This document shows positions 197 through 64,000 of a stretch of DNA of 64,000 bases, in pieces. The position numbers and the translations under genes were made by a program. Below the pieces are notes generated by a model, which saw nothing but the letters and a program-made list of their open reading frames with translations, ran no database searches and had not been told where the DNA came from. Position 1 is the first letter of the stretch, and every line of letters starts with the position of its first letter. This stretch comes from a virus (taxonomy: Duplodnaviria > Caudoviricetes): IMG/VR virus record IMGVR_UViG_3300035520_001075, positions 32,001 to 96,000 of that record; one strand, written 5' to 3'.

Positions 197-3100
197 AATA
201 GCCCGTTTTACAGAATTGTCTGAAAACGTCTCAGCAGAAGATTCTGAATTTGATGACTTAGACTACAATGATGTAGATACGGCATTAAAATCTGTAGGTA
301 TCTCATTAAAAGATGCCACAGGACAATTTAGGGATTTGGACGATGTATTTTTAGAGTTAAGCTCTAAATGGAGTACATTGGACCGTAATACCCAGCGTTA
401 TCGGATACCATTCCATTTTTTAAATGTGTTTGTATCACAAGAAAAACATTTTTAAAATATTGACTTTAATAATATTTTGTGATATAATATTATTAGTAAA
501 GGAAAATCTTTACTAAATATTATAGTTAGGAGTGATATGAAAATGGTTGAAGGAAAACCAGTTATAATTAATGGAAAGGAAACACAGTATTTTTTATTTA
601 AGAATGGAGATTTATATAATGAAAATACGCATAGAATTGCACAAGGTGCAATAAATCAAGGGTATATAAGATTTACTCTTGAAATTGATGGAGAAACTAT
701 AGGCATTTATAAACATCAATTAATGGCTCAATTATTTATTCCAAACCCTGAAAACAAACCTATTGTTCATCATAAAGATGGGTGTCCAAGAAATAATACC
801 TTAGATAATTTAGAATGGGTAAGCCAAGAAGAAAATCTTAATAAAATTATTAATCCAGTTGAACATAAAATAACTGAAAAATTAACATTAGAAGAATTAG
901 AAGAAGAAGAATGGAGACCTTTACAAAATAGTAAATACGAAGTATCAAATATGGGTAGAATTAAAAATTTACAAACTGGAAAAATAACTTTTGGTAGTAG
1001 GAATAAAAATAGTGGCTATATTAGGTGGACATATAATGATTTAAATGGAAATCGACAAGAAATTCAAGCTCATAGAGCTGTTTATATGGTTTTCCACCCA
1101 GATGAAAAAATCAATGTTATTAATCATATTGATTCTAATAGAGGTAATAATAGATTAAGTAATTTAGAGAATGTTTCTCAAAGAGAGAATGTTATAAAAA
1201 GTTATTATCAAACAAAAACAAAACAGACAAAACTAACTGGACAATATGATTTAGAGATGAATTTAATTCAAGTTTTTCCTAGTACCTCAGAAGCTGCAAA
1301 AAATATTGGATTAAACAATTGTTCAAATCTCTCTCGTGCGATGAAAACTGGCGGCATTAGCCATGGTTATTATTGGAGGGAAATTTCAAAAGCAGAATAT
1401 GATGAATTCTTAAATAAAAAATAATAAAGCTAGGTAACGTAACCCATTGAATTGCGGGAATCTCCTTTAAAATAACACAACCAAACAATTCTAAGAATTG
1501 CGGCGAAGGTAATGACTAAGGTATGGTAATATCGTGTTATTTTGGACAATCCGCAGCGAACTTATTTACTTTTTAGTGAATAAAGCGTTCAACGACTATC
1601 GAAATTATAAGTAGAGTAGATTTTTGGAAATCGAAGTAGTGGGGAGTTAGTTATTAACTCATGATATAGTCTAGCTATTATTGAAAGATAATAGAAAAAC
1701 TGATAGCAACTACTGCGGCTTGACTTTAAACGGGTCGCATAAAATCTTTTGAATTGCGGGGACATAATTAAATTTTGAAATACTAAGCAGAAGCGGCGAT
1801 GGGTAATTCCAAAGGTATAGTAAAAAGTTTCAAAATATTATAATCCGCAGCGAATTTTTCTAATAGAAAAAACGTTCAACGACTATCGAAAGCAAATTGT
1901 AAGTAGAGTAGATTTTATAGAGTCGAAGTGGAAGACACTCTAAAAGAGTGAAGATATAGTCTAATATTTATTAATATAATAAATATAGGGTTCTCGTTAA
2001 AATGCTGGCGAAGTGTACAGCCTAAAAAAACACAATTCTTTCAAATGCTGGGACATCTTAAAGCCCATTATACCACAGCACAAAGAGAAATCTTAAATGC
2101 GAAGGTTCTAAAAAATAATGGGATTTATAGGATACTATAAAATAGACAATCAGCATCCAAGCACCGCCAAGGTGAAGGTTCACAGACTTAAAAGAGAATT
2201 ACTAATAGTAAATTATATAGTCGAGCTTTATTGAAAAATAAAAGGAAGTGATTTAATATGTATAAAACAATTATGATTAATGAGTAGATAACAGAATATT
2301 TAATTTTTGATGATGGGCGTTTATTTAATAAAAAGACAAATCATTATTTAAAAGGAAGCATTAGTTCAACTGGTTATAGAACTTATTAGCTAACAGTTAA
2401 GGGCAAATACTATAATATGCTTGCTCATAGATTAGTAGCGGAATATTTTTTAGACAATAAAAATAATTTGCCTTATGTTTATCATAAGGACGGTAATCGT
2501 CTTAATAATTATAAAAATAATTTAGAATGGGTTAGCTTTTCTGAAAATTCAATAGAAGCCTATGCGGCTGGCCGCAGAACGTCTCATGCTACTAAACAAT
2601 ATATTACAGAAGAAGAATTAGCTAATAAAGAATGGAGACAAATTGAACAAACTCAATATTATGTTTCTGAGTATGGAGATGTTTATAATTCTAATACGAA
2701 AGCAAAATTAAGACCAAAGAAAGATGGCTATTTACGCTATTCAATTTTTATTGATAATGAAATTAAAATAATTCCTGCTCATATTTTAGTTTATAAAGCT
2801 TTTGTTAATAAGGAAATTCATAATGAAATAGACCATATAGATGGTAATAAACTAAATAATCACTATACCAATTTAAGAGATATATCTCATTCTGAAAATA
2901 TGATTAATGCAATGAATAATGGTCATAGAAATAAAATAGCGGTAGAGCAAATTGATGAGAATGGAAATATTGTTAAAATTTTCCCATCTATAGCTGCCGC
3001 CGCAAAAGAAATGAAATGCCAACCTGCTCTAATAAGAAGGGCAATAAAAAACAAAAACAAAACTCATAATTACTATTGGAAAAAACATATTAAATAATCT

Positions 3101-6100
3101 ACTTGCAGCAGAGTAGATTCTTAGCTTAAAATTTAAGGCTACAATATTTGAATTGCTGGAAACTCCTTAGAGCCTAATAAACTACAACATAAAAAGAAAT
3201 TTTAAGTGTGATAGTTTAAAAATTATTAGGATTGGACAATCAGCAGCCAAGCATCGTTAAGATGAAGGTTCAACGGTCATTACGTAGGAATAAGCATTCC
3301 GAAGCGGAGAATTTCTGGAAAGATAAGATATGACCTTTTCTTATAGGAAACTATAAGCCATATTGGAAAGTTATTTAGCGAATAGCTTTAAAAATAAAAG
3401 TTAATGGAAGATTACGATAGAACAGTGGAACTTGTTGAAACAGCACAAGATTCTACTGGTAAATCCTCTGAACAATTTGCAAAATATCAAGATACACTCG
3501 AAAATAAAGTTAATAAATTAAACGTTGCCTGGGAAAAATTAAGGTAGAAATTTGTTAGCTCAGATATATTTAAGGGAGCTATTGAAAGTATTACAAAACT
3601 TGTTGATAAATTAAATAGCTTTAGTATTGCGGATTTTGCAGCATTGGGAACTGTATTTGTTACACTTGGCAATACTGCTGCAGAATCTTTTTTAAATGGA
3701 TTTCGTTCTACTCTAAAAGGAGTCGGACAAATAACAACCATGATGTCAGAAAAGTTTACTTTACAAGCCTTTCCTGAATTTAGTAAAAATTCAAAAGAAA
3801 AATTACAAAAAGAACTTGAAAAAAGTAATAATTGGGTAGAAAGAGCAACATCTAATTTGGAAGCTAATAAAACAGCAAGGTCCGAAAATTATAGTCTTTT
3901 AAATTCTCTGAAACAAAAGTAGGTAAAAAATCTTGAAGAAGTTAAAAATTTGAAAAATTCTCAACTAATAAGTCTCATGCGTGGAGACAGTGATGAGGTA
4001 CTACAAAGAATTGAGAATAGTTTACAAGAAAAACAAAAAATAGGAGAACAAATAGGAGAAGATCTTCAAGCAACAGAACAAGAACAAGAGAAAATAAATT
4101 AGGCTATTGTAAAAGGAAAAAAGGATTTAGCTGAAGCAAAAGCAGACCAAAGTTTTAAGACTCAAAAACTACAAGATTCTGTAGTTGTAGATTCTACAGA
4201 ATTAGCTGAAACTGCAAAAAATTCTTTCGTTACTGCATTTACCACTGGTATTACAGTAGCTTTTGCAACTGAAAATCCTATTAAAGCAGGGCTTTCTGCG
4301 GCAGTGGCAGGGGCAGTAGCTTTCTTGCCTATTATTTTTAAAACAATAAAAACGTTAATGACAAAACAATCTTTGAGTTTGGGTCAAGCAGCTGCAAAAG
4401 CCTTTAATTCAGGATTGGGCCCTTATGCAATTATTGTCGTGGCTGTTGCTGCTGCTATAGCTGCAGTTGTAGCTGGAATAAAAAAATTACAATCAACCAT
4501 GGAAGCCAATTCTATTGGTGGCCGCATTAGTGCTCTTGAAGAAGATATTGATAATGCCACAGAATCTGCGACGAAGTTAAAAGAGGCTTTATCAAAAACA
4601 ACAGAAGAGAAAAAATCATTAGAAGAAATTAAAGAAACTTATAATGAGCTAAAAAATAAGCTAATTTTAACAGAAGAAGAGCAAGAAGAATATAATTCAA
4701 TGGTAGAGACTTTAAAAGAGAGTTATCCAGAATTAATTACTTACTATGATGAACAAAATAATAAAATTACAATTTCCAACTCTTTATTAGACGAACAAAT
4801 AGAAAAGGTTTCGGCATTACAAAAATTAGAATCTCAGCAAGTGTTAGCAGCGGATTATAAAACAGAAGGATTGCAAAATCAATATGATACGTTAAATGAA
4901 ATACTAAGCGGTTATTCTAAGTTTGGCTTTGATGCGACGTGGGCGACAGAAGATGACAATATATTTAAAGAATCTTCTTTTAATACTAACACTATAAGTA
5001 TGATTGATGAAGAAGGCTTATTAGATATTTATAATAAATATCTCAATAAAAGCACACCTGTTGTTTCAATGTCAGCGGAAGATAGGAACGCTGTTATAAA
5101 TGCAATACAATATGCCTTCTCAGGTGATTATGCTTATCTTTCAGGTATTTCAGACAATTATAAAGAAGGAGCACAAGCATTAGCTAATGCAGCAGAATCA
5201 GAAAGAGAAATCATAGATGGATTAAAGAATGACTTTGCGGAACTCTATAGCTATGCTACCGATTATTATAGTACAAACTATTCTGATATGACAGAATCTG
5301 AGCAGGATATACGAGGGGCAATTGCCGCGGCATATATTGACAAGTTAAATGATATTGTTATTTCTGATAGTACCGATATGTAGGACGTATTGACATAGGT
5401 ATCGGAAATTCTTGGAGATTCAGGGATTGTAAATTTAGATTAGTTTGAAAACCAATTTACATCAGCATATGCCAGTCTTAAAAGTGGGTGGAAAGGAGCG
5501 AATACTTTAGCTTAGAACGATGCTTCTGCTAGGTCATTATTAGCTCTTTTGGGTATTACCACAGAACAAGAATATGCTGACCTTGGTATAAAAGATTGGG
5601 GTAATGATGATATTTTAGCTTATATGAATAGTAATTTTATTCCTTTATTATCAGAACAAATAACAGAAGCTTTAGGAGAAGTAGAAATAGATAGTAATGC
5701 ATTATCTGTAGCAAATGAACTTTTTACTGACGTAAACGAGATGTCAGCAGAAGAATATGCAAATGCTAAAAACACTTTATCTGAGGCATTAACCCAATAT
5801 GATGATATTGATATAGATACTGTTTTGGGAGCTCTTTTTGATTAGACTACAATTGATAATGCCGTAGAAAGTTTACAGGCCTATAATAACACGTAGGATT
5901 TTACCATTAGTAATTACACTACAATGGCATCTGCTTTAGCTAACTTACAAGACCGTTTCGGTTCTTTAGATGCATATGCACAAGACTCTTTCCAAGATTA
6001 TATTAATTTTATTCAAGGACAAAATTTATCAAGTGATGTCGCAAATGCATTATTTAATATTGATGTTTCTTCTTTTGATGGACAAACAAGAGAAGAAATA

Positions 6101-9100
6101 AAAGAGGCAATAATTGAACTAGTATCAAATGAAGACCTCGAAGGGGCATTGGGAGAGAAAGAAGCAAAAGCTTTTGCAGAGGGCTATATTAATGAATTAG
6201 AAACAGGAGCTTTGGCGGATTTTAGCATTACTTCTGTTGTTGGTTTTGAATCTGAAATTGATGATATAAAAGAATAGGCTAAAACTATTACAGATTCAAT
6301 GTCTTCTATTACTGATGCAATTACCAATTAGGCGGAAAAAGGATACATTACCGTTAGCAATTATGCTACTTTAGCAGAACAATTAAGCAGTTTAGACTTA
6401 GATGTAGATGATTATGTTTCTGTTAATGATAATGGAGATTATAGTTTAAATGCAGAGGCTTTAAGAGATGCTTATGCAGAACAACTTAATGATAAAGAAA
6501 ACTTAGTTGAATTGGCAAAAGAAGATTTACAAAACGGTATTGATGAATTAGATATTCAAATTCAAATCCTTGAAAGTATGCTCAACGGAGTTAATGCAGA
6601 AGATGCAAAGGGAGAAGCCATTGCTCGAAACAATAGACTTTATGCGGAACAATTAGCATTATAGGCTGGTCAAGACGTTGATACTTATTTAACAAATCAT
6701 AATATAAGTTTATCTGATGCACAAAGTTCGTTAACGACTGAACAAAAGAAAATAATACAAGATCAAATTGATTCCCTGTAGGCTCAAAAAACAGATATGG
6801 AAAATAAAAAGAATAACTTAACTGAGGATGAAGCAGAAAAGATAATATCTCCTTATTTAAATGACCTTTTACGTACATATACTGAGGCTTGGGATGATGG
6901 AGTAGAAAAAGCAGAAGACGCAGAAGATATTGAAGACGCTTTAGAAGCTATTGAAGAAGCAGAGCAAGATGTAATTGATAAAACAAAAGAACTTCAAGAA
7001 GCATATCAGGGCTCAGCTTGGTATGAGAGTGCAGTGGATTAGCTGTATAATTATACTACTGCTTTGGATTATGTTGCTGATAAAATTAGTGATTTTAAAG
7101 ATACTCTTGATGATTTAAGTGCTGATGATAATATTACTGAAAATTTAAATGGATATTTAGAGAATATTAAGAAATATAATACAATTTCAGAAGCAGAGAA
7201 AAAAGTTCTTGAACAAGCTAATCAGTCAATTATTGATGGACTTGACAATACTTTAACTAAAGAATTACAGGCTCTTAGCGAAAAATATAGTGATTATAAG
7301 ATTGATACAAATGTTTCTGATTATTATACTTATGATGAATATAGCGGAACTTATATGGTTAATAGTAATGCACTGGCCGCCGCCAAGATGTCAGATACCA
7401 TTAAGAAAGAAATCGAAACACAAGTTCAGCAGTTAAATAGTAATTTAAGTTCAATAAACGATATAAATGAAAATGTAAAGAAATATGAGTAGGAATTAGA
7501 AGATTTACAAGAAACAGCATTAAACAATCAAGTTGCTCTTGAAGATGAAGTAATTTCAACCTTAAAGCAAAAGTATCAAGAAGAAATTGATAATGCTAAA
7601 GATAAATATCAAGCATTAGAAGATGCTAATGATGAATATCTTGAAGCTTTACAAGATGCAATTCAGAAAGAAAGAGATTTAAGAAGTGAACAGGATAGTT
7701 GGGACGACTTAGCTAAGAAAGAAAAGAAACTGTCTTTAATTTCAAGAGATACTTCTGGGGCAAATCAATCTGATATTCAAAGTTTACAAGATGAAATTGA
7801 TAATGATAGACAAACATTATTAGATGATACTGTCGATAATATTCTTGAAACAATGAAAGAACAATATGAAACACAGAAAGAACAAAATGATACTCAAATA
7901 GAAATTCTTGAAAATCTTCATAGCGACGAAGCAATCACAAAAGAAGCTGTAAGTCTTATCGCAAGTTGGCAAACAACAGATGATATGATATTATGGATGA
8001 CTCAAAATTCAACAGAGTATGAAACTTGGTCTGATTCTAAATATCAGCAAATGGTTGAATCTTGGGAAAAAGAATTCCTAGCAAAACAAGCAGCAGATGA
8101 AATATTATAGACAGATTTATTATCTCAGACTAAGACAGACGCGGAAGAAATTGAACAAACATATGAAGCTTATGACCAAACAGCAACAACTCAGATAACA
8201 ACTGCTATTGGAGACGATATAGATACTGTTTCTACAGAAATTAGTGATGCTAAAAAGGCTTTAGAAGAGGCACAAAAAACATTAATAGAAAAGCAAGAAG
8301 CTTATAATGAATTAATAACTAATATTGATGAAAATGTTGCAGATATAGCAAACGGAAAAACAGCGGATAATGATAATAACGATAATAAAGATAATGATAC
8401 CGTTGCAGACGAAACAGCAGCATATTATAAGGAACAATATGATAAAAATGCTAATAATCCAGCTGCTCAAAGTGCTATAATTTCAACAGCTAAAAATAAT
8501 GGATATAATTTTTCTAATGGATTTTTTTATAAATCGTCTAGTATTTAGAATAATGACGATGATACTTCTAAACTAACAGAAGCCAAGGCATTATATACAC
8601 AATATTTAGCTAATGAAGGTAATGCTAATGCACAAACACAAATTGGTAATTTAATATCTAAAACTGGTTATACTGTTGAACAAATCAAAGAAACATATAA
8701 CAATTCAGGATTATCGTTGATAAATAAAGCAACAGTTTCAAGTGAAGATGCCGTAAAAGAAGGTCAGTGGTATTCTGTAAACACAGGAACAACTAATGAA
8801 TGGACTGAATACGGACAAGTTCTATGTGCAGACACCCAAACAGAGTTAGAACAAATTATACAACTCGGCAGAAAATAGGGCTATCTTGCTAATATAGAAT
8901 TTGCTATGACCCATAAAGGAACCGATGAACCTACATACTTTTTTAAATCAGGCGGCCTTGTTGACTACACTGGTCCAGCATGGGTAGATGGTACAAAAAC
9001 CAAGCCAGAAGCTTTCCTCTCAGCATCAGACACTCAACGTATAGGAGAAGCCGCAGAACTTCTTGCTAATATTCCAATACTCAACTCAACATCAACTTCA

Positions 9101-43795: not shown

Positions 43796-45013
43796 TTAGA
43801 ATAATTCCTTTATCAAGATAAGAGTTTCTTTTAGCTTGTCAATATCTTCTGGCTTAATTTCTGAAAACTTTGTTGGTTTTCCAAAAACTTCTGCTAAAAT
43901 TCTCTGAGCCTCCTCTATCTTTTCATTTACAACAGCTTTATTCCATAATTCTTTTGCTTCTGTCATTAATTCGTCAAAATCCTGAACTAAATATGGATTT
44001 TTATCTTCTGAACTTTCACCGCCGCTATGAGCAACTTCTTCATCAATTGCGTCATGAATAGCATTAACAAAAGCATCATAATCCAATTCAATTTTTGGTG
44101 CTATATATTTAAAACGAGATTTACAAAGGAAACGCTCATCTCCCCTAAAGAACATATAACGTTTTCTTTCAATCTTATCTCCAATTTCAGTTGAGATTTC
44201 TCTTATATAACCAATTATATCAACCATTTTATTAATTAAATTAAATGGTCGATTCGGAAGAGCAGGAATTATTTTTGAGTATTCCTGACCTTTATCATCA
44301 GTGTAGGTTTTTTCTGTTTCATGAGAAATAAATACTATACCATAACCAGCATAAGTTAAATCTCTAAAAGGAGTTATGAAATTATCATCAAGCATCTTAT
44401 ATCCACCGCCATATGCCGCAATATCTCGTACTTGCTCAACTCCTGCTTGAGAACAAGTCCATTTCTCACAAAGCTTAAAAGCTTCATCAACAGTATCAAT
44501 AACTAATACGTTGAATTTTTCCTGCAATTCTGGCTTTTTAATTAACTGAGAAGCCATCTGTCGCCAATCCTGCCATGTTTTAACTGGCTGGACATAGATA
44601 TTATTTAAGGCGTTTGTCCTTTCTACCGTTCCTTTCGGAATACTTTAACACCCCTTAAGGGTCGGAGTAGACTATATCTTCTTCATTTTATTAATGAAGC
44701 GTAATATTTCAAAATAATTAATATTTTTACTTCCTAATGGAATAGTCGTTGAACCTTTCACTGGTTAAGTGATTTGGCTGCTGATTACCATATTAATTAA
44801 TTTAGGCTTTCCAGCAATTAATTACGTTATTCAATATATATTACTATATAAGGGAGCTACCAATTAACCCTGCTCGAATCCGCATATAAGTGCTTTGTCG
44901 AACTTCGATGCGAATGTTGTTTTTCCGCATCCAGGCTGTCCATAAATAAGAGAAAACTTCCCTCTTAAATCTCTACTAATTTTCTGTGGCTCTAAATTAA
45001 GTAAATCTATCAT
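43796..45013 (-). CDS. AAA_24/Sak4-like ATPase (spliced, 322 aa)
   Basis: Exon 45013-44867 has Walker A GQPGCGKTT and ends FEQG. Exon 44617-43796 begins TNALNN and has LVIDTVD, FISHE and CKSRF. Adjacent to an SSB-like gene. Confidence 0.82.
44618..44866 (-). mobile_element. Group I intron in the AAA ATPase gene (no ORF, 249 nt)
   Basis: Core AATTGCTGG, AATCAGCAGCC, GTTCAACGACTA and AAGATATAGTCT. Terminal G at 44618. Confidence 0.87.
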
Positions 45014-55040: not shown

Positions 55041-58000
55041 TTAATTTTCCTCAAAATTTAAATGTTTACATCTAAAATAAACGTCTTCTGACCTTCCTCT
55101 ATTCGGCGTGTAATTACTAATATCATTACTACCCTCAGTTTCCCGATATTTATTAGGGTTTAGACTATACCTTCATTATTATAATAATGTCGCTATTATA
55201 GTCGTTGAACGTCTCTCCTTTTCTTAAAAAGGAGATTTCGCTGCGTTTGGTTATCCAATCCTTAATGATTTTACTATACCAATCCCATTACTGATTGCCA
55301 TTATAATATTACTATTATAATTTAGTTATTAAGGCTCTAAGGACTTTCCCGCAGTTTAAGCGATTTAAAGTGACCTATTAGTTAAGCCACATATTCTATA
55401 GCTTGTTCTAACTTTTTCTGGGTCTTTTTCTCCACATTTTGGACATTGCCAGCGAATAGTTCCATCTTCCACCAAAATCTTCTTAAAATCATACCCTTCA
55501 AAGCCACAGGTCTTGCAGGAAGAAATTTCTGAGTTAATTTCTGAATATAAACAATTTTCTCCAATAAAATTAATTATTTGTAAAATTCCTTCGATATTAT
55601 TGCTCATATTAGGAACTTCCACATATGAGATTGAACCCGATGTGGTTTTATCGCTAAATTGTTCTTCATCTAAAAGTTTTGTAAAAGCATCTACTTTATC
55701 TCTTACGTGATGATGATAAGAATTAGTAAGAAAATGACTCTGAGTTCCATCGCCAATTTGACCAAAATTCTTAATACAAGCTTCTGCAAAATCATCTGTT
55801 GTTGATTCCATCATTTAATACCCTCGGTTTCCCGATATTTATTAAGGGGATTAGACTATATCTTCTTCCTTTAAAAAGGAAGCTCTACATTTCGATTTTT
55901 TGATATTATCTCATCTACATTTCGCCCTATTATTAAGCCTACTCGGTTCAGTTTTATAACTGCCTTTCCCTAGTCGTTAGACTTTTATTATTTTACTTAT
56001 TTACTTGATACTTTTAAAATTCTATTTTGTCATTTTATTTTTACTTCTTTTTTTTGTATTATTAATCATAAATAAGTAAAATAAATTTAGTACGGTATTA
56101 CCTCTATCCAAAGGACTTAGGCTCTCTTACCAGCTTATTATTAGTATTCAGCTATGACCGTTTAGTAGAGTTCGCATTAACAATTACTCATTAATGCCCC
56201 ATGTATATCTAGGAGTCCCATATAATCCTGCGGCAAGACCTGTTGTGGCTGTCAACTCGTCGTTCCTCTGATTCATATAATCAATAATTTTATGAGCTAA
56301 TTTATTACCTTTTTCACCGAATTGGTCTTCATCACAAATATAATAAACAGCTTCTCGCAGGCCCGCATAGCCCAAAGAAATTGAAAAATATTGATTATAC
56401 ACATATTTTTCAAGAGTCTCTTCTGGGTCAAGTCTTAGAATTCCGCCGTAAACAAAATGAAGAGGATTATCTTTTGCTTTTATTTTAGCTATATGATTAG
56501 CTCTCCATAACATATCTCTTTGAGCAATGTCAATATAATGAGATAAATTTTCAAATAATATTTTTTCGTCTTTATTAGGATTATTTTCCATTGCAATATA
56601 CGGAAGATTTAATGTCTGAACGCCGAGGTTTCCACGTCCAAAAACCACGTAATTACCATCTTCGTCTTGCCATGGATTTAACATACTTCTACACGTATTA
56701 TCCTTTATCGCTAAAGGTACTGACTATATTATCTATCACTTTTGATAGTCTTCTGCTTCGAGAAAAATCTCTACTCGGCTACATTCATCACCGATAGTCG
56801 ATACACCTATTAATTGGCACGGTCTCAACAATTAATGCCCTAACCGTTTTCAAAAGATTTTAAATGGGCTATAGTATTCGCTTACCCATTGGACAAGTTG
56901 GAACTTTTTTAAGCTCTCTATGTTTTTTAACACTTAAATAATCTGGAACTAATCTTTTAGCGCTACATTCTGCACAAAGCTTAGTAGTATTATAATATTT
57001 TCCGCCTTCCATAGTATTTTTATCAAGAAAATATAGAATTTTTGGAAAATTAGGATTTAAATAAGTTCCATCTTCTTGTCGCATTCCCTGTATTCTTTGT
57101 CTAATCATTTCTTCAAAAACAAGAATTAAATCTTCAGAATATTCTTCATCTTCACTAAGCCAACAACCAACACTTAAAAAGGCCGCCTGACCAGTTCCCG
57201 AACAAAGAGTATTTGTTTGATACAAGAATGTTTGAATTCCATCTTTAATTTCTTTCTTTAGTCTTTTTTCAGTAATTCTATTAATATCTTTTTCATTAGC
57301 AATTCCAACAGATTCTAACTCTTCAGCGACTTCTTTTTTAATTTTTTCTCTGCTAACACGAACAAATTTTGCTAAATGAAGTAAATTAATCGTTATACCT
57401 CCATATTGCGAGCTTGTTGCATGGGTCAGAGCCTGACTTGCTACTGTACAAGCTGTTTTAAAAGATTTTGGAGTTTCAATATAAATTCCATTAATATTAC
57501 AACCTTTAAACATCTCTTCTAAATTCCAATTGCAGCAGTTAAACATGGCTCGGGCACTATAAGAAAAATCATGGAATTTAACCACGCATCTATCATGAGC
57601 ATCTAAACAATCTTTTGGTAGTAATTTTCTCATCATTTCTTTACTTGGAATTTCCGCAAGATAGGCATTTTTAATATGAACTAAATGAGGATTTTTATTA
57701 CCATTTTCATGCTCAATTTCTGGATTAACATAAAGAACTTTCTCAATTTCTGTGGGGTTCTTTATTGCTCTCTCCTTATCCATCTTATAAGCACTATATT
57801 CTCTTGCTACATCTGGAACTTCACTATAGAGAACGCTCATAACAAAATTTTCAATTCTTTCAACTTCAATTTCATCCTTCTTATTATTTTTGGCTTCTTT
57901 CTGTACCAAAATGTTAACTACATTAACCAAATCATTAATTTTATTAAAGTCTGGATAACCAATCTGATTCCAAGCTTGAGTTATTGCGTGCTGAATTTTA

Positions 58001-58044
58001 GTATCATCATAATCAAATTTTCCAGTTTTCTTTATTACTATCAT
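55041..58044 (-). CDS. nrdD: Anaerobic ribonucleoside-triphosphate reductase (spliced, 717 aa)
   Basis: ATP-cone N-terminus, NCC and SSQYGG. Exons 58044-56884, 56693-56211, 55811-55385 and 55123-55041 give PMG|CRS, YGTP|MES and the glycyl-radical motif RICG-Y-IS (split within the Tyr codon). Confidence 0.92.
55124..55384 (-). mobile_element. Group I intron nrdD-I3 (no ORF, 261 nt)
   Basis: P1: exon GTGGCT pairs with GGTCAC. R GTTCAACGACTA and S AAGGTATAGTCT. Terminal G at 55124. Confidence 0.87.
55812..56210 (-). mobile_element. Group I intron nrdD-I2 (399 nt)
   Basis: P10 CAT pairs with exon ATG. R GTCTAACGACTA and S AAGATATAGTCT. Terminal G at 55812. Confidence 0.83.
56694..56883 (-). mobile_element. 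Group I intron nrdD-I1 (no ORF, only 190 nt)
   Basis: P1: exon ATGGGT pairs with GCCCAT. R GTATCGACTA and S AATATAGTCAG. Terminal G at 56694. Removal restores MG|CRS. Confidence 0.85.
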
Positions 58045-58077
58045 TCTGAAAACCTCCTTTTCATTTACTTTACTATA

Positions 58078-58121
58078 ATTATATCACAAATAATAGAAAA
58101 AGTCAAGAGATACTCTTGACT
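58078..58121 (-). promoter_or_regulatory. Terminator hairpin fused to the nrdD promoter
   Basis: AGTCAAGAG-TAT-CTCTTGACT-TTTT, with TTGACT-17-TATAAT. Confidence 0.78.
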
Positions 58122-58129
58122 TAATCTTT

Positions 58130-58573
58130 TTAAAATTCTTCCCATTCTTCCATATTTTGTGTTATTGTTTTTACATAAGAATTTCCATTAAGACGGGTAT
58201 ATCTTTCATATAAAGAAAGCCAGTCCTATTTGGCTCGTGTTGGAATTCGTTTTTCATCCTTATAAGCGACATACAGAGTAGTAATCTCGTGTCTTAACAT
58301 TACCAAATCATTTTGATTCTGAGCATTTAGCTGTCCCTTAATGTCATCTAAAACAGCCTTAATATCACTCATATCCTTATTAATCTGATTAGTATTCTCG
58401 CCTTCTTTAATTCCTCTTTCCTCATACGCTTCTGCGGCGGCCTCTTTGGCTATTTTCTTAATCCAATCTCTTGGCTTTTTAAAAACCATCCCCCATAATG
58501 CCGCTAAAGTAATAATTGCTCCAGCCGCTCCGCCAATTGTTTTTAGTATTTCTAAAAAATCTAACCAACTCAT
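58130..58573 (-). CDS. Putative holin-like membrane protein (one TAG)
   Basis: N-terminal hydrophobic helix IGGAAGAIITLAALWGMVF, then a coiled coil and LRHEITTLY. After TAG 58228-58226 the frame continues LYERYTRLNGNSYV...EEF to TAA, a C-terminal pattern typical of Firmicutes phage holin-like proteins. Confidence 0.6.
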
Positions 58574-58574
58574 T

Positions 58575-58988
58575 TCAAAAACCTCCATGTGATATAATAT
58601 AATCATTATGATATATATCCCTCACACGATAAGAAGGTTCTGTTATTATTTTGCCCAAAGTTAATCCTTCTAAATCCCAATAAGGAATTCTTATCAATGG
58701 TATATTATGTAGTATGCAATATTTGTTTTTACGTCTATCCCATTCTCGTTGCTTTTTAAAACCGAAAATGTTCTTATGAAAATGTTTTGTAAATTTGTAG
58801 TGTTGAATCCCATCTACTTCAAGGAGAAATAATATTTTATTATTCTTATAAACAGCAAAGTCAAATCTTAATGGAACTTGCTTTTTACCTACTAAATCAG
58901 TAAATGATATTTCCCTTTTAAATGCTATTCCGTTCTTATTAAAAATATCAATAAGTTTTTGTTCACCTTTAGAAGTCTTAATACTCAT
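58575..58988 (-). CDS. PD-(D/E)xK nuclease (DUF559/Vsr-like)
   Basis: Motifs SKGE, LRFDFAV, LEVDGIQH, D..KNKYC and IPLIRIPYW. Start ATG 58988. Confidence 0.75.
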   Translation of the reverse strand: MSIKTSKGEQKLIDIFNKNGIAFKREISFTDLVGKKQVPLRFDFAVYKNNKILFLLEVDGIQHYKFTKHFHKNIFGFKKQREWDRRKNKYCILHNIPLIRIPYWDLEGLTLGKIITEPSYRVRDIYHNDYIISHGGF

Positions 58989-59781
58989 CTCTATCTCCTC
59001 TTCTAATAGGCTTTTCTCTGAATTCTGTAGGAACTGGATAAGGCGGCAAAACGCAAGGAAAACCAGTAGGGATTTCTTTTGGTTGTTCCATTTCCTTAAC
59101 TTTATGCGGCTCAATATGATATGTTGCCACATGATGAAGGTGTGGATAATCTTCTGGTCTTTTCTTTTCTTTATTAAATTCGTAGAACTGACAATCTAAT
59201 TCAGCAGTGAAGTAGGTTGTGTTAATAAGGTCTAACTCTTTTCCGTCTTTTTCTTTTTTCTCCATATCTTCTCTCCAAACTAATAAGTTAATTTGGAAAT
59301 TCTCTACGGTTTCATCGGTTAAAGTATATTTTAAATGATAAAAGATTTCCTTGCCTTCACTAATATCATATTCATTTGTCTTATCGTTCCAAATAGCAGT
59401 TATTATTGCTAAATAATCTTCAAAATCACAGAGGAATTGTATAAAGTCTTTATTGTGATATTTAACTTCTTTTATTGAGCCAGATTCTTTCTTATCCTGT
59501 ATTGTGGCGGCCATATCAAAGGTAAAATAATCAGCATAGTTTTCTAAATCAAATCCTTCAAAGTTTGGCAGCGGTCTTGGAAAATACTTAGATTTGTACC
59601 ATTTAAGCTCTAAATCCTTATTTGGATTACCAAGCAAATTTTCAATTAATGAAGCCGCTTTTAAATAATCCTTACGAATTGAACAAATAGGAAACTTCTT
59701 ACAAGAATAACATTTTGGCTGAACTTTCGTAGGCTCTGGCGGCACATTATTAGCTGGCTTTAAATAACAATTATTTCTCAT
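58978..59781 (-). CDS. Hypothetical protein with a Cys cluster
   Basis: CYSCKKFPIC near the N-terminus, Pro-rich ends. RBS AAGGGGTG. Confidence 0.7.
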   Translation of the reverse strand: MRNNCYLKPANNVPPEPTKVQPKCYSCKKFPICSIRKDYLKAASLIENLLGNPNKDLELKWYKSKYFPRPLPNFEGFDLENYADYFTFDMAATIQDKKESGSIKEVKYHNKDFIQFLCDFEDYLAIITAIWNDKTNEYDISEGKEIFYHLKYTLTDETVENFQINLLVWREDMEKKEKDGKELDLINTTYFTAELDCQFYEFNKEKKRPEDYPHLHHVATYHIEPHKVKEMEQPKEIPTGFPCVLPPYPVPTEFREKPIRRGDRDEY

Positions 59782-59862
59782 TCTATCACCCCTTTACATA
59801 AAATAAAGAGAAAAATCTCTTCTCTATGTTAAGTAAAAGGGCTTCTTTTAAGTTCTAATATT

Positions 59863-60996
59863 TTAATTATTTTCAATTTGCGACCAATCACAGTCGGCGG
59901 CCGCTTTATCAGGACGTTCTTGGACTATTTTACCATGTCTTAAAGAATAGTGTCCTGATATATATTCAAGCTCCATGCAAGTAAGTTCATAGACCTTATT
60001 AAGGTATTTCTCAGGATTTTCAACAATTCCTTGCTTCATTTCATCTGTAATTCCAGAAATCCAGCCTATACGAATTGGTTTTCCATCTTTCATTACTGAG
60101 AACGAAATTGCACTTGCCCAGCCATAATAATAAGCTTTTGTAATTGGAGTTAAAGCTCTACCTTGGTAATAATCATAGTACATATTTTTATTAATCTTTT
60201 CTCCTGTTTTATCATTAATCCAGTAATTCCAATTCTCAATTTCTTTGCCATTATATTCTTTAGTAGGGCTCTTATATTCTCCATCAATAAAAGCGTCTAT
60301 TGTCTGTTCTATTTCCATTTTAACTTTAAGAGTTTTTCTACTTGTTCTCTTGCCTGGCTCAGCAATTCCGTTCTTTTTGTAAAGTACCATTCCTTCGTCG
60401 CCACGTTTTAAAATTTCACCTAATTCATTCCAAGCCTCTTCTCCTTCTAAATATTTAGCTATATCTATATATTCTTTTCCCTTACTGGCGGCCGCTATAA
60501 AAGTATCTAAATATTTTCTAATTCTATCTTCAAATTTAGTATTGAGTAGACTTTTTCCATTATAAGCCCAGACATCAAACACATAGTAGTGGAGTTTCTC
60601 ACCTTTTTCTTGTCTATCAAGAGCTTTATTAAGTAAACACCCAAGTATTGTTCCTACTTTACGACTTCCTCTTTGTTCAGGAAGATATAATTCTCCAAGT
60701 AAACAAGTTCCATTAGGTAGACTATCAAAGAATTCTTGGCACTGAGGTGTCCATTCTATTTTATTTAAATATCCTCCTTCTACACTTTCAGAGCGGCCTT
60801 GTAATCTCATGTTTCCATTATTATCTTTTATAAATCTTGCATAGTGGCCATCATTCTTTAGAGCTCCAAGGTACTGTTTAGAGAGGAACATTTGTTTTGT
60901 TTCTTCTTTTTTATTACCTTTATAGGATTTAGCAAATGACCAATAACGTTCTGCAGGAAGTTCTTCAAAATCTACATTATCAATTATCATACTCAT
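59863..60996 (-). CDS. lig: ATP-dependent DNA ligase
   Basis: Motif I KNDG, III LLGELY, IIIa YYVFDV, IV EGMVL, V LKVK, and VI SLRHG..RPDK. Confidence 0.85.
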   Translation of the reverse strand: MSMIIDNVDFEELPAERYWSFAKSYKGNKKEETKQMFLSKQYLGALKNDGHYARFIKDNNGNMRLQGRSESVEGGYLNKIEWTPQCQEFFDSLPNGTCLLGELYLPEQRGSRKVGTILGCLLNKALDRQEKGEKLHYYVFDVWAYNGKSLLNTKFEDRIRKYLDTFIAAASKGKEYIDIAKYLEGEEAWNELGEILKRGDEGMVLYKKNGIAEPGKRTSRKTLKVKMEIEQTIDAFIDGEYKSPTKEYNGKEIENWNYWINDKTGEKINKNMYYDYYQGRALTPITKAYYYGWASAISFSVMKDGKPIRIGWISGITDEMKQGIVENPEKYLNKVYELTCMELEYISGHYSLRHGKIVQERPDKAAADCDWSQIENN

Positions 60997-61112
60997 ATTT
61001 TATCTTATCTCCTTATTATTATTATTATTATTAATTATATTATATATTATATACTAATGATAATATATAATAACCAATATCAACCAACCTATTTCTTTTC
61101 TCCAAAACTTAT

Positions 61113-61913
61113 GTGAACGGCTACGAGCGGAGCGAGTAGCGTTCACCGCCACTCGATGCACAACTTGTTGTGCATCCTGTGGCGTTTTGTGTAGGCATAT
61201 CAATGTAGGCACATCAGTATTGAAAAGACGGCATTAAATGTTGTATGCCCTATAGGCTACTGATTTTTTGATATTTCACCCATCACAAGAAATAAAAAAA
61301 AGAATTATTGAAATTCTTTATTTCACTTTCAACTATCGTTAATTTAGTTTCTTACGAAATCTCTGATACTTAACAGTTCAATTAACAGTTGCCCTTATAG
61401 CGTTCTCCTTTAAGGGAAAGTATTTTCTAAAACTATCGCCCCAACCTCAACTTTTATTATAATACGTTTATAATAGGTTTTAACTACCTTTTTGACGATT
61501 AAGATTACGTTGAGATTCATAACCGCTTACGAGTTATTAGGCATACTAAATATTTAATCTTAATAGAAAATAAATGTACCCTCAAATACAGAGTAAGAAT
61601 TGTTCTCAAATTCTTAAACGAGTAGATTTACGCTGCAAGGCTTACCAAACCATAAAGACGTAGAAAAACAGAGCCTATCATCTCGACAGTCCCTGTTTCC
61701 CTTTTTGATATCGCAGTGTCTTTTACAGTGTCATCACTGCGTTAAGGTATAATCTAACTTTAATCTCCACAGAGAGTTGAACATTGACCTTAAATTTGAA
61801 TGTACAGTGGTATAATCCTTTTGTTATATCAGTTCCATTCTATTCAATTGTTAGCCGTAATTTACGGAGATAATCAGGTTTTAATAACCAGAAATGAGTT
61901 TTTCTCATTTATT
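61113..61913 (-). ncRNA. Candidate large structured non-coding RNA
   Basis: A region of about 950 nt without a credible gene, directly downstream of a consensus promoter. It has many local hairpins and several long-range complementary pairs. Confidence 0.5.
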
Positions 61914-61919
61914 ATAATA

Positions 61920-61948
61920 ATTATAACACATTTTTATTTAAAAGTCAA
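61920..61948 (-). promoter_or_regulatory. SigmaA-type promoter firing into the non-coding region
   Basis: TTGACT-17-TATAAT with TG, followed by TATTATAATAAATGAGA. Confidence 0.8.
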
Positions 61949-61953
61949 GTAGT

Positions 61954-62508
61954 TTAGTATAATGACTTGGCGGCCGCAGCAGTTTTAATTACAGAATAGA
62001 TTTCTTCCCAATCATTACATCTATGAATAGAGGGGTCAATAACATTCTTATTCCACGGATAAGCAAGACAAATTTTTAATGGTTGAGTTGTACTAAAATT
62101 GGATAAGCAATCATCTATTAAAGCATCACCAATGACCATACTTTTATCATAACAAACAATCAGATGCTTTCTTATATCCATATAAGGGAAAATTCTTTGG
62201 AGATAAGATTCTTTTTTAGGAGCATTCTTCATTTCTGTTTTAGTACAAAAATAAATTTCGTGTCCATCATTAAATAATTTTGCCATATATTTCTGAACAT
62301 TTGGTACTAATTTCATTCTATTCCATGTTCTTTTATCAAGAAAATAATGATAGAATGTTTCCTTATACTGCGGCTTGACAAAATTTTCGATATTATACTT
62401 AGTAATTTTATCTACAGTAAGATTATCTTCACTATCTTCATTATAAACATCTAATACTGCTGTAGTTAAGTCTCCTACTACATTATCAACATCACATAAA
62501 ATTCTCAT
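61954..62508 (-). CDS. 5'(3')-deoxyribonucleotidase (HAD, NT5C-like)
   Basis: Motifs ILCDVDNVV, K..YL...FP, DK......LIDD and PWN. Confidence 0.85.
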   Translation of the reverse strand: MRILCDVDNVVGDLTTAVLDVYNEDSEDNLTVDKITKYNIENFVKPQYKETFYHYFLDKRTWNRMKLVPNVQKYMAKLFNDGHEIYFCTKTEMKNAPKKESYLQRIFPYMDIRKHLIVCYDKSMVIGDALIDDCLSNFSTTQPLKICLAYPWNKNVIDPSIHRCNDWEEIYSVIKTAAAAKSLY

Positions 62509-63057
62509 TTAGTCCTCCCATCTTAGCCTAATAATACTACAATTTCTCATTTTTCCATCTACATATCTTTTTGATTCTACTACATCAAAGCCTTTAGAGA
62601 TAATTTCTTTTTTGACAGTATTCCATTTTAAGATATTGCCTCTTTTATCTTTGATTTTAAAGAATTGACTTAATTGGTCTTTATCTTCTTTAAATAATGG
62701 CTTTTCAAGTAAAGAAGTTATCATTCTAATAATTTCTTTTTTGGAAGGCGGCAAAGCCTTTTTTGAGTCAAAAATATTCTGGGCGGCCGCTATCTTATTA
62801 TAGCCATTATTAATAGTATCGTACTTTTCAATATAATATTTTTCTTTATCACTTAGCTCTTCTTCTTCACATAATTCTATAATAGAAAAAGTAAAGTTAT
62901 TAGAATTGTGATAAAGATTAAAATGGAATTCGTCATCAATAGAAGTAGAATATTTACCTTGTTCTAAATGCTCATTCCATCTACGAAAAATATCAATTGA
63001 TTTTCCAATATACTTCTTTTGAGTAGTTTTATTTTCTATACAATAAATACCAATCAT
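62509..63057 (-). CDS. Free-standing GIY-YIG endonuclease
   Basis: MIGIYCIENK...KYIGKS..I.RRW.EH, E.YYI and GYN. Own promoter at 63089-63117. Confidence 0.8.
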   Translation of the reverse strand: MIGIYCIENKTTQKKYIGKSIDIFRRWNEHLEQGKYSTSIDDEFHFNLYHNSNNFTFSIIELCEEEELSDKEKYYIEKYDTINNGYNKIAAAQNIFDSKKALPPSKKEIIRMITSLLEKPLFKEDKDQLSQFFKIKDKRGNILKWNTVKKEIISKGFDVVESKRYVDGKMRNCSIIRLRWED

Positions 63058-63124
63058 TTTTATTGTCCTTTCTTAACTTACTATAATAATTATAACATTA
63101 ATTATAAAAAAAGTCAAAACTTTT

Positions 63125-63637
63125 TCAGTTTTGACCTTTAATAAACAATTCATAAAATGTTGTAGCTTCTTCTTTTAATTCTTCAATGCCTTGTGTATTA
63201 TCAATTTCAATATCATAGCCGCCTTCTCTAACATTATCATCAGCTCTATTACCATAGGATTGTTCTTCTACATCTCTTTTAATAGTAAGAGTTAAAGCAT
63301 TATAGTCTTTAGATAGTCTTTCAATGTCTTTATCTTCTCTACAATCTACAAAAACCGCTTTAGAGCCTAATTTTCTATGTTGTTCTATTTTAGATATCAA
63401 TTCTCTATAAGGGTAATCATTCCATTCTTCTAAAACATCTTTTAGGTCTGCAAGCATTTTTCTATCATTAGCATCTTTTTTCCCATTCCAACCAGCAAAT
63501 AGTGCTACATCTTTAATACTATCAACAATAGAAAGAACTCCCACATCATCTCCATTATTGGCGGCTGCCTCTCTGACAAAGGACTCAAAAAGAGTTTTTC
63601 CTGTTGTTGGTTTTGAATTTACTATAAATACTTTCAT
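63125..63637 (-). CDS. P-loop nucleotide monophosphate kinase-like protein
   Basis: Motifs VNSKPTTGKT, GWNGKKD..DRKML, VFVDCRE and YDIEIDN. Confidence 0.65.
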   Translation of the reverse strand: MKVFIVNSKPTTGKTLFESFVREAAANNGDDVGVLSIVDSIKDVALFAGWNGKKDANDRKMLADLKDVLEEWNDYPYRELISKIEQHRKLGSKAVFVDCREDKDIERLSKDYNALTLTIKRDVEEQSYGNRADDNVREGGYDIEIDNTQGIEELKEEATTFYELFIKGQN

Positions 63638-64000
63638 TCAAAAATTTCCTCCTCTAATTCTACAAATTTTCCATCTATATATTTATAAGGACGTTTAATG
63701 ACTTTATCATCTTTCCAATGAACTTCTATAATTTCATTTCCCCATCTTTCGGCTAAATATTTAGGTATGCTTAAATCATTATAATTGTAATATTCCAATT
63801 TTGGTATATTTGTTTTATTCTTCAAATATAAAGGAAAATAGCTCTTACTGATGATTTCTGGCTCTTCTAAACTGTCATACCACATATAGAATATCATATC
63901 ATTTAAGTCTTGCACTTTTTGAGCAATTTTTTTATCAATCTCAAAATTATTTTCCCAAAAAACAACGTAAATTTTTTTCTCTGTATGCCAAGTATAGCCG
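63634..64000 (-). CDS. Hypothetical protein (5' end outside the window)
   Basis: The frame of track ORF 63634..63915 stays open to the window edge. Confidence 0.6.
   Translation of the reverse strand, partial: GYTWHTEKKIYVVFWENNFEIDKKIAQKVQDLNDMIFYMWYDSLEEPEIISKSYFPLYLKNKTNIPKLEYYNYNDLSIPKYLAERWGNEIIEVHWKDDKVIKRPYKYIDGKFVELEEEIFE

What the first reader, a model, noticed from the sequence alone, without database searches (positions are those of the whole stretch)
61185..61913. Promoter-driven, highly base-paired non-coding region: candidate large ornate RNA
Seen in sequence: this is the only long gene-free stretch in the window, and it starts right after a consensus promoter. Local hairpins on the - strand include CCGTAA/TTACGG, GCAGTG/CACTGC, AAGAATT/AATTCTT, ATAAC..GTAA..GTTAT and AAAGAATT/AATTCTTT. 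Long-range complements include 61787-61793 with 61742-61748, 61775-61781 with 61328-61334, and 61539-61546 with 61243-61250. It lacks group I R/S motifs and flanking exons. Established: ROOL and GOLLD RNAs (roughly 600-800 nt) occur in Firmicutes and their phages. Inference: a member of such a class or a new one.
Basis: partly seen in the sequence, partly recalled or inferred. Interest (0 to 1): 0.7.

Follow-up and report, generated by a model that had tools for sequence, protein, structure and literature searches.

The report
New large structured phage RNA gene
The gene-free stretch holds a separately transcribed, roughly 625-nucleotide folded non-coding RNA that matches no catalogued RNA family, is kept by a small group of large gut/rumen phages, turns up in gut metatranscriptomes, and has no known function.

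Summary
Window 61000-61950 has no credible ORF and starts behind a consensus extended -10 promoter, one of 42 near-identical ones in this 157-kb phage.

The real unit is 61913->61288 on the minus strand (~625 nt), ending at a hairpin plus U-run terminator. It recurs as a promoter-to-terminator cassette in six sequence lineages of related phages, between different nucleotide-metabolism genes (NT5C, RNase H, NrdD, NrdG, ligase).

The secondary structure is conserved through compensatory changes:
- Core domain: 26 of 56 pairs changed on both sides, against 12.6+-2.0 in shuffles.
- Whole-RNA consensus energy: -93 against -59 kcal/mol for column-shuffled alignments.

RNA contigs from four gut metatranscriptomes cover only this unit. 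No Rfam family matches, so it is not ROOL, GOLLD, OLE or a group I intron.

One caveat concerns "highly base-paired". The core folds no better than shuffles (z -1.4). The z of -7 comes from an extra 290 nt of lineage-specific GC-rich hairpins (61286-61000).

Best reading: a new class of large, trans-acting structured phage RNA, function unknown. Rivals are a cis leader or attenuator, and an RNA-primed origin. The same stretch was noted once before in this scan, in an overlapping window.

The parts
61920..61948 (-). Sigma-70-type promoter: -35 TTGACT (61948-61943), 17-nt spacer, extended -10 TGTTATAAT (61928-61920)
   Evidence: 11 of 12 matches, TG present. One of 42 TTGACW-N15-TGNTATAAT sites in the genome. 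Conserved in front of every homologue.
61288..61913 (-). The non-coding RNA gene (~625 nt), from the predicted start (~61913) to the end of the U-run
   Evidence: Six homologous lineages. Covariation. RNA contigs lie within 61333-61898. No conserved small ORF.
61892..61910 (-). 5'-terminal hairpin AAAUGAG-AAAAA-CUCAUUU. Two RNA contigs end at 61898, inside it
   Evidence: Other lineages have a hairpin at the same place with a different sequence, as read from the alignment (inference).
61855..61867 (-). Hairpin CCGUA/UACGG. Relatives have CUCCGA/UCGGAG here
61742..61793 (-). Composite hairpin (helices 4-6) with the invariant apex UCUC-UGUG-GAGA.
   Evidence: In one search, helices 4 and 5 each have 3 pairs changed on both sides. 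In one search, helix 2 has 6 of 7 pairs covarying.
61644..61714 (-). Long hairpin (helices 8-9) topped by the cap below
   Evidence: In one search, helix 7 has 6 of 16 pairs changed on both sides and 97% of cells paired.
61673..61691 (-). Most conserved element: hairpin cap GGACUGUCGAGAUGAUAGGCU. It has a 5-bp stem with an invariant G-U, a GNRA-like loop (GNGAU), and an A-G mismatch below the stem
   Evidence: Invariant. The loop is a plain GGGA tetraloop in L147 and L148. The same cap sits on covarying stems in unrelated phage contigs.
61520..61610 (-). Insertion of about 90 nt found only in this lineage, folding as local hairpins (AAGAAUU/AAUUCUU, AUAAC..GUUAU) inside helix 11
   Evidence: Gap in all other lineages.
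61457..61490 (-). Two adjacent hairpins: AAGGU-AGUUAAA-ACCU(A) (stem invariant apart from the closing pair) and UUAUAA-ACGUA-UUAUAA (covarying)
   Evidence: In one search, helix 13 never varies apart from one unpaired cell, and helix 14 has 3 pairs changed on both sides.
61288..61321 (-). Intrinsic terminator: weak A/U-rich hairpin (61321-61301) plus U-run (61300-61288)
   Evidence: Relatives have GC-richer hairpins of unrelated sequence, each followed by a U-run, at the same place. One low-depth RNA contig reads across it.
61250..61287 (-). Partly conserved box just after the terminator (relatives: AGGGnAAAAUCUAU..AAnUC)
   Evidence: Read from the alignments. Role unknown.
61000..61249 (-). 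Lineage-specific block of strong hairpins, including CGCCAC..GUGGCG (61184-61147) and GUGAACG..CGUUCAC (61146-61113). It is not part of the conserved RNA and runs up to the ligase ribosome-binding site
   Evidence: z -5.0. Absent from L032 and L039. Found only in near-identical contigs.
61954..62508 (-). Upstream gene: 5'-deoxynucleotidase (NT5C)
   Evidence: Pfam PF06941, E 1.8e-27.
59863..60996 (-). Downstream gene: ATP-dependent DNA ligase
   Evidence: PHROG 114. Pfam PF01068.

Best explanation
Window 61913->61288 (minus strand) is a stand-alone gene for a ~625-nt structured non-coding RNA of a family not in Rfam.

Shown:
- Transcription signals for the host sigma-70-type RNA polymerase: a consensus extended -10 promoter, and a hairpin plus U-run terminator at the other end.
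- A conserved multi-helix fold with a better-conserved core (61835-61641) and 3' domain and a variable 5' part. The fold is maintained by compensatory substitutions and is specific to the minus strand.
- The cassette sits between different nucleotide-metabolism genes in six lineages of related 120-180-kb phages.
- RNA of this unit, but not of its flanks, is assembled in gut metatranscriptomes.

Inferred (about 55% likely):
- The RNA acts in trans as a stable, abundant, self-folding molecule during infection. It would work as a scaffold, sponge or RNA-only assembly, in the manner proposed for ROOL and GOLLD.
- The invariant GNRA-type hairpin cap would serve as a tertiary-contact or protein-binding module.
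- Leaky termination would feed low-level expression of the next gene.
For: ORF-free in all frames and under any single stop reassignment. No small ORF conserved across lineages.

Promoter: and one of 42 near-identical sites.

Homologues:
- L032, L039, L074, L133, L101.
- Covariance-model hits over the full length of the core in three further phage genomes, E 2e-29 to 7e-17.
- Each has the same promoter, 575-630 ORF-free nt, and its own terminator hairpin.
- Flanking genes differ from lineage to lineage.

Covariation:
- Full length, 6 sequences: 27 pairs changed on both sides, against 7.4+-2.2 in shuffles (0 of 500) and 0-4 in slid controls.
- RNAalifold on column-shuffled alignments: 13.6+-3.5 such pairs (max 23) and -59 kcal/mol, against 32 pairs and -93 observed.
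- Core domain, 7 distinct sequences: 26 of 56 pairs, against 12.6+-2.0 in shuffles and 2-5 in slid controls.
- 3' domain: 18 of 47 pairs against 3.9+-1.9, and energy -23.4 against -6.1+-2.3.

Strand: the forward consensus energy beats the reverse complement (-93.4 against -78.7 for the whole RNA, -33.7 against -22.5 for the core). About a tenth of paired cells are G-U.

Expression: 8-9 RNA-seq runs hold the stretch. In four of them, contigs at 100% identity cover 61333-61898 and nothing beyond 61930. Two end at 61898, one of those with an adapter attached.
Against: - The single-sequence folding energy of the core is unremarkable (z -1.4).
- There are only six sequence lineages, several pairs of them close. 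The core alignment was fitted to the model, which favours the structure.
- Contigs cannot show strand, transcript ends or abundance. The runs were picked because they hold this stretch.
- No function, partner or multimer has been tested. The trans-acting and scaffold part is inference by analogy.
- In four lineages the next gene starts 60-90 nt after the terminator with no promoter seen between them. That layout also fits a cis-acting leader.
- The RNA is absent from 6 of the 9 other related phage records searched, several of them incomplete.
Confidence: 0.6

Rival explanations
1. It is a very long cis-acting leader or attenuator. The folded RNA would control read-through of its own terminator into the next nucleotide-metabolism gene (NT5C, NrdG or ligase), either by sensing a metabolite or factor or by making RNA polymerase resistant to termination.
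For: The RNA always points the same way as the next gene. In L032, L039, L147 and L148 that gene starts 60-90 nt after the terminator, with a conserved box and no visible promoter in between. The downstream genes all bear on the dNTP supply. One RNA contig reads across the terminator.
Against: - At about 600 nt it is several times larger than known riboswitch or attenuator leaders (established knowledge).
- The downstream gene differs between lineages. In this window it is 290 nt away, and in L146 more than 330 nt away and TAG-recoded.
- RNA contigs cover the RNA and not the downstream gene.
Confidence: 0.15
2. It is an RNA-primed replication origin. The structured transcript would act as a pre-primer, like ColE1 RNA II or the T4 oriF/oriG transcripts, and the hairpin block downstream (61286-61100) would serve as single-strand initiation structures.
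For: - The unit lies in the replication and nucleotide-metabolism module. It is 2-2.7 kb from the switch in GC skew and transcription direction at genome position ~96 kb.
- In L032 an RNase H gene sits directly upstream.
- Strong hairpins, stable on both strands, follow the RNA in this lineage.
That is a lead only and was not tested here.
Against: - A terminator is conserved in every lineage and would release the RNA.
- The hairpin block is missing from all other lineages.
- GC skew in this genome simply follows gene orientation.
- The cassette changes position relative to its neighbours.
Confidence: 0.1
3. It is decayed coding sequence, or the remnant of an intron or homing-endonuclease element, with no function of its own.
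For: The genome is rich in group I introns and homing endonucleases. Relatives carry small ORFs upstream of ligase where this phage has the RNA.
Against: - No protein similarity to any neighbouring ORF of the relatives.
- No frame can be opened.
- No group I model hit here, although the same scan finds three introns elsewhere in the window.
- Compensatory covariation, a conserved promoter and terminator, and expression.
Confidence: 0.03
4. It is a divergent member of an already described RNA family such as ROOL, GOLLD, OLE or HEARO.
For: Its size (~600 nt), phage origin and gut/rumen-type samples recall ROOL (PMC12286853).
Against: cmscan against all 4227 Rfam 15 families gives nothing in this stretch at gathering thresholds, and nothing credible at E<=10 over the locus or at E<=5 on the distant member L147. 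It is not near tRNA genes. Literature searches found no description of it.
Confidence: 0.03

Closest known systems
ROOL RNA (Rfam; forms an RNA-only homo-octameric cage, PMC12286853)
   Same: A non-coding RNA of about 600 nt encoded by phages, with an elaborate multi-helix fold, its own transcription unit, no known function and no known protein partner.
   Different: No match to the ROOL covariance model. Not beside tRNA genes. Sequence and helices unrelated. Multimer formation not tested.
GOLLD RNA (Rfam; 14-mer cage, PMC12286853)
   Same: A large phage or prophage RNA with a better-conserved part and a variable part. Here the core and 3' domain are conserved and the 5' part varies.
   Different: GOLLD often exceeds 800 nt and sits in tRNA arrays. 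No model match here.
OLE RNA (~600 nt, Bacillota; ribonucleoprotein)
   Same: Similar size and degree of conservation.
   Different: OLE is chromosomal, lies in a fixed operon with the oap genes and is membrane-associated. No model match.
Lambdoid boxB hairpins (GNRA-like pentaloop on a 5-bp stem)
   Same: The invariant cap is a 5-bp stem with a GNRA-like pentaloop (GNGAU). Two lineages have a plain GNRA tetraloop instead.
   Different: The stem and loop sequences differ. No N-like protein or boxA was identified. This resemblance is recalled from memory and was not tested.
ColE1 RNA II pre-primer
   Same: A structured transcript of about 550 nt from a strong promoter, in a replication context.
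   Different: RNA II runs into the origin and has no terminator in front of it. This RNA ends at a conserved terminator.

Membership tests
ROOL RNA | Match to the Rfam covariance model at or near its gathering score | tested here: not met
   No hit at gathering thresholds, at E<=10 over 60900-62100, or at E<=5 on L147.
ROOL RNA | Often encoded next to tRNA islands of phages and prophages (PMC12286853) | tested here: not met
   No tRNA in the 64-kb window. The nearest tRNA is at genome position 121319, about 27 kb away.
ROOL RNA | Forms an RNA-only homo-octamer | not testable with these tools
   Needs SEC-MALS or cryo-EM.
GOLLD RNA | Match to the Rfam covariance model, conserved 3' region, usually over 800 nt | tested here: not met
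   No hit. Length is about 575-630 nt.
OLE RNA | Match to the Rfam covariance model | tested here: not met
Group I intron | Match to RF00028, and interruption of a host gene with flanking exons | tested here: not met
   RF00028 finds three introns elsewhere in the window but nothing here. The NT5C gene gives a full-length Pfam match, and the ligase aligns over residues 1-377 with its relatives with a central catalytic-domain match in Pfam, so neither gene looks interrupted.
tmRNA / RNase P RNA / tRNA | Detected by ARAGORN or Rfam models | tested here: not met
Stand-alone bacterial-type ncRNA gene | Own promoter and own intrinsic terminator, conserved across homologues | tested here: met
Stand-alone bacterial-type ncRNA gene | Conserved secondary structure supported by compensatory changes | tested here: met
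Stand-alone bacterial-type ncRNA gene | A discrete transcript of the predicted size and strand | tested here: inconclusive
   RNA contigs are confined to 61333-61898, but contigs give neither strand, nor both ends, nor abundance.

The most novel reading that the evidence does not exclude
This is a previously undescribed class of ornate large phage RNA with an activity of its own. It might self-assemble into an RNA-only multimer as ROOL and GOLLD do, act as a new ribozyme, or bind a host factor through its invariant GNRA-type hairpin cap. That cap is shared as a module with other, unrelated phage non-coding regions.
Probability: 0.2. Interest if true: 0.85.

Novelty: new variant of a known kind. 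Interest (0 to 1): 0.62.

Why it matters
Very few large structured RNA classes are known in bacteria and phages. Those that are known (ROOL, GOLLD, OLE, raiA) have recently yielded unexpected RNA-only architectures.

This adds a well-bounded, expressed class of about 600 nt, with a defined promoter, terminator and consensus helices. It could go straight into in-vitro transcription, chemical probing and cryo-EM.

It also brings out a 19-nt hairpin cap that recurs in unrelated phage non-coding regions, which may mark a common RNA-binding partner.

The limits are a narrow distribution (six lineages of uncultured gut/rumen phages), an unknown host and no functional clue.

Tried and rejected
- blastn ('distant' mode) of the locus against 50,697 GenBank phage records: no match.
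- tblastn of every ORF around the ligase genes of relatives against the locus: only noise, so it is not a decayed copy of those genes.
- Alternative genetic codes: no frame opens.
- Using the window's own MFE structure as the test structure gave only weak enrichment of kept pairs. Among changed pairs 42-46% were kept against 32% expected; among pairs changed on both sides, 15 of 30 against 35% expected. The single-sequence fold is only partly right, so consensus structures were used instead.
- MAFFT misaligned the 5' region of distant members. Counts from those columns were not used.
- Exact-pattern scans: CTCTGTGGAGATTAAAGTT found only known members. The two-block pattern added one redundant contig and two random coding hits, L153 and L155.
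- The genome-contig scan with the cap motif found no copy of the large RNA in 185,579 species genomes, only random coding hits and a few isolated hairpins.
- A weak covariance-model hit in L032 at 6600-6750 (E 2e-4) overlaps the ligase gene's end and was dropped.
- No consistent terminal direct repeats flank the cassette.
- Searching papers for the cap sequence returned only primers and noise.
- TIGR arrays and IS605 omega RNA were considered for the hairpins and not supported.
- Parts of the 6-kb stretch without RNA cover, and contig depths, were not used to rank genes.

Full report
**Setting.** The window is bases 32001-96000 of a 157,483-bp virus record with direct terminal repeats and 31% GC. 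Around the finding, all genes lie on the minus strand and belong to DNA and nucleotide metabolism:
- a weak dNMP-kinase-like match (E 4.6e-05, no stretch passing on its own) and a GIY-YIG homing endonuclease;
- a 5'-deoxynucleotidase, NT5C, at 61954-62508;
- then the gap;
- an ATP-dependent DNA ligase at 59863-60996;
- an HNH endonuclease and the N-terminal part of NrdD.

**Observation.**
- Between 60997 and 61953 the longest ORFs are 52, 50, 36 and 30 codons. Each of the six frames has 20-34 stops, spread over TAA, TAG and TGA. No single reassignment opens a frame, including the TAG recoding that earlier notes report for this phage.
- A near-perfect extended -10 promoter, TTGACT-17-TGTTATAAT, lies at 61948-61920 on the minus strand. 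The genome holds 42 sites of this exact form (first seen), so it is a standard promoter of this phage for the host polymerase.
One of the three long-range pairs, 61787-61793 with 61742-61748, turns out to be a real helix.

**Boundaries.**
- Relatives with 42-69% identical ligase do not have this sequence upstream of ligase. They carry small ORFs there, and these ORFs show no similarity to the gap.
- Searching with the NT5C protein instead turned up L032. There a homologous ORF-free stretch (76-84% identity in blocks) lies upstream of NT5C rather than downstream.
- Pattern scans and nhmmer added L039, L074, L133 and L101.
- Homology runs from the promoter to a hairpin plus U-run and about 35 nt beyond. 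In the window that is ~61913 to 61288, with a partly conserved box down to ~61250.
- The last ~250 nt before ligase are not shared.
- The terminator hairpins differ completely in sequence between lineages, but each is followed by a U-run.

**More distant members.** A covariance model of the 199-position core (window 61835-61641) was searched against the whole records of ten related phages. It found matches over the full length of the core in three:
- G005, E 2.4e-29;
- G004, E 1.9e-19;
- G002, E 6.8e-17.

Each of these has the same promoter immediately upstream, 575-630 ORF-free nt, homology through the 3' domain, and its own terminator. That makes six sequence lineages. The neighbours differ from one to the next:
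- window: NT5C > RNA > ligase;
- L032: RNase H > RNA > NT5C;
- L039: unknown > RNA > NT5C;
- L146: NrdG > RNA;
- L147: unknown > RNA > NrdG;
- L148: NrdD C-terminal exon > RNA > NrdG.

So this is a self-contained cassette that stays within the nucleotide-metabolism module but not at a fixed site. No copy was found in GenBank phages or, using the cap pattern, in 185,579 prokaryotic species genomes.

**Structure.**
- On the six-sequence full-length alignment, the RNAalifold consensus has 135 pairs within the RNA. Of the cells, 96.5% are paired, and 27 pairs changed on both sides. Shuffles give 7.4+-2.2 (0 of 500 reach 27) and slid partners give 0-4.
- Because that structure was derived from the same alignment, I re-ran RNAalifold on 40 column-shuffled alignments that keep gap and conservation classes. 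They give 13.6+-3.5 such pairs (max 23) and -59.4 kcal/mol (best -70.4). The observed values are 32 pairs and -93.4 kcal/mol.
- On the model-based core alignment with seven distinct sequences, 26 of 56 pairs changed on both sides. Shuffles give 12.6+-2.0 and slid controls 2-5, with 94.2% of cells paired. This alignment leans towards the model.
- The 3' domain, on a plain MAFFT alignment of seven sequences, gives 18 of 47 pairs against 3.9+-1.9, and energy -23.4 against -6.1+-2.3.
- The forward strand scores better than its reverse complement for the whole RNA and for the core. About 10% of paired cells are G-U. This fits an RNA read from the promoter strand.
- No small ORF is conserved. The one recurrent frame has a stop in L146 and lacks a listed start in L148.

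**Thermodynamic caveat.** The 916-nt stretch folds far better than shuffles on both strands (z -7.3 and -6.4). The conserved 627-nt RNA alone does not: z is -1.4, and 20 control windows of the same genome average -1.0+-1.0. The excess comes from the lineage-specific 287 nt at 61286-61000 (z -5.0). That block contains two long GC-rich hairpins at 61184-61147 and 61146-61113 and occurs only in near-identical contigs. 'Highly base-paired' is therefore the weakest part of the original observation. The case for a structured RNA rests on covariation.

**Expression.**
- Eight metatranscriptomic runs of animal-gut samples hold 31-69% of the sampled words of the stretch, and a ninth holds 18%.
- Four runs were laid on 58000-64000. 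Their contigs at 100% identity cover 61333-61834, 61466-61898, 61580-61866 and 61523-61898.
- Nothing lies on NT5C or further upstream. Only short low-depth pieces lie on ligase and the next ORF.
- One low-depth contig (61180-61431) crosses the terminator.
- Two contigs stop at 61898, inside the 5' hairpin, one of them followed by adapter sequence.
- Uniform DNA contamination would not give this pattern. Even so, contigs cannot give strand, both ends or abundance, and the runs may all belong to one campaign.

**Known families.**
- Rfam 15 (4227 models) gives three group I introns elsewhere in the window and nothing here at gathering thresholds. Only noise appears at E<=10 over 60900-62100 or at E<=5 on L147.
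- ARAGORN finds no tRNA or tmRNA in the window.
- ROOL and GOLLD are the closest in kind: large phage RNAs, often beside tRNAs, that form RNA-only cages (PMC12286853). The defining model match and the tRNA context are both absent here.
- Literature searches found no description of this RNA.

**The hairpin cap.**
- The most conserved element is GGACUGUCGNGAUGAUAGGC at 61691-61673. It has a 5-bp stem with an invariant G-U, an A-G mismatch below the stem, and a GNRA-like pentaloop. In L147 and L148 the loop is a plain GGGA tetraloop.
- The exact 17-mer also occurs in unrelated viral and metagenomic contigs of 31-57% GC.
- In 24 non-coding contexts, 18 extend the cap with at least 3 closing base pairs of differing sequence. 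Only 7 of 57 coding contexts do.
- It therefore looks like a portable RNA or single-strand hairpin module. What binds it is unknown.

**Mechanism.**
- What is shown: the promoter, the terminator, the conserved strand-specific fold, the mobility of the cassette, and RNA presence.
- My best reading, at about 0.55: a stable, abundant, trans-acting structural RNA, with the cap as a tertiary-contact or protein-binding site. Leaky termination would supply the next gene.
- The cis-leader rival (0.15) draws on the short promoter-less distance to the next gene in four lineages, and on the dNTP-related function of those genes.
- The origin or pre-primer rival (0.10) draws on three things: the nearby switch in skew and transcription at genome position ~96 kb, RNase H adjacency in L032, and the hairpin block. 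The conserved terminator and the block's absence elsewhere argue against it.
- Decay or membership of a known family is unlikely.

**Verdict.** This is a real and apparently undescribed class of large structured phage RNA. It is of the same general kind as ROOL and GOLLD but not related to them, and its function is unknown.

Noticed in passing
window 61000-61286 (minus strand): A 287-nt block of very stable hairpins (z -5.0) between the RNA's terminator and the ligase start, including two adjacent GC-rich hairpins at 61184-61147 and 61146-61113. It is found only in near-identical contigs. On the plus strand these hairpins are followed by T-runs, like terminators. Purpose unknown.
   Followed up: partly
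L040, L041/L044, L043, L060, L070, L079, L100, L106, L117, L143 (positions): The 17-nt cap GACUGUCGNGAUGAUAGG occurs as an isolated hairpin, with closing stems of differing sequence, in intergenic spots of unrelated phage and metagenome contigs (31-57% GC). Examples: just upstream of a P22-type coat gene in L100, and as a terminator hairpin in L070.
   Followed up: partly
L077:8440-9766 (minus strand); also L078, L091, L098, L118, L123, L135, L042, L103, L093, L095, L108: Large metagenomic contigs (up to 477 kb), probably jumbo phages, carry ORF-free regions mostly 0.85-1.6 kb long. In the L077-type contigs these lie between an ATP-cone ORF and a 462-aa ORF. The regions hold variable numbers of hairpins with covarying stems and conserved UGUMAAAGG loops, then the same cap motif, a conserved AACCAAUG..CGUUGGUU stem, and CTAAGAAAA tandem repeats before the ribosome-binding site. 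This may be another large RNA or a long leader.
   Followed up: partly
L042:2001-2147: A strong match to the Rfam IS605-orfB-II RNA (145.7 bits), with no tnpB-sized ORF next to it, inside the ORF-free region of a 284-kb phage contig.
   Followed up: no
window 1399-1693, 1710-1982 (+) and 44648-44876 (-): Three group I introns above the Rfam gathering score. NrdD appears split: a 391-aa N-terminal part at 56869-58044, with an HNH endonuclease gene nearby at 58575-59132.
   Followed up: no
whole genome (G000): 42 copies of TTGACW-N15-TGNTATAAT, arranged in blocks by strand. GC skew and transcription direction both switch at genome positions ~57-58 kb and ~96 kb (about window 64000).
   Followed up: partly
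L146:2327-3193 and genome 121319-121393, 123400-123473: The relative G005 has an ORF that stays open only if 7 TAG codons are read as residues, which fits the TAG recoding noted for this phage. ARAGORN finds only tRNA-Gln(UUG) and one tRNA with an unreadable anticodon in the window's genome, and no obvious CUA suppressor.
   Followed up: no
window 61898: RNA contigs from two runs end exactly at 61898, about 15 nt downstream of the predicted start and inside the 5' hairpin. One carries adapter sequence. This could be a processed 5' end, a reverse-transcription stop, or an assembly break at the inverted repeat.
   Followed up: no
window 61250-61287; L032 ~3943-3985; the same place in L146-L148: A box (AGGGnAAAAUCUAU..AAnUC..CUC) conserved just after the terminator U-run in all lineages, whatever gene follows. 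It could pair with the U-run.
   Followed up: no
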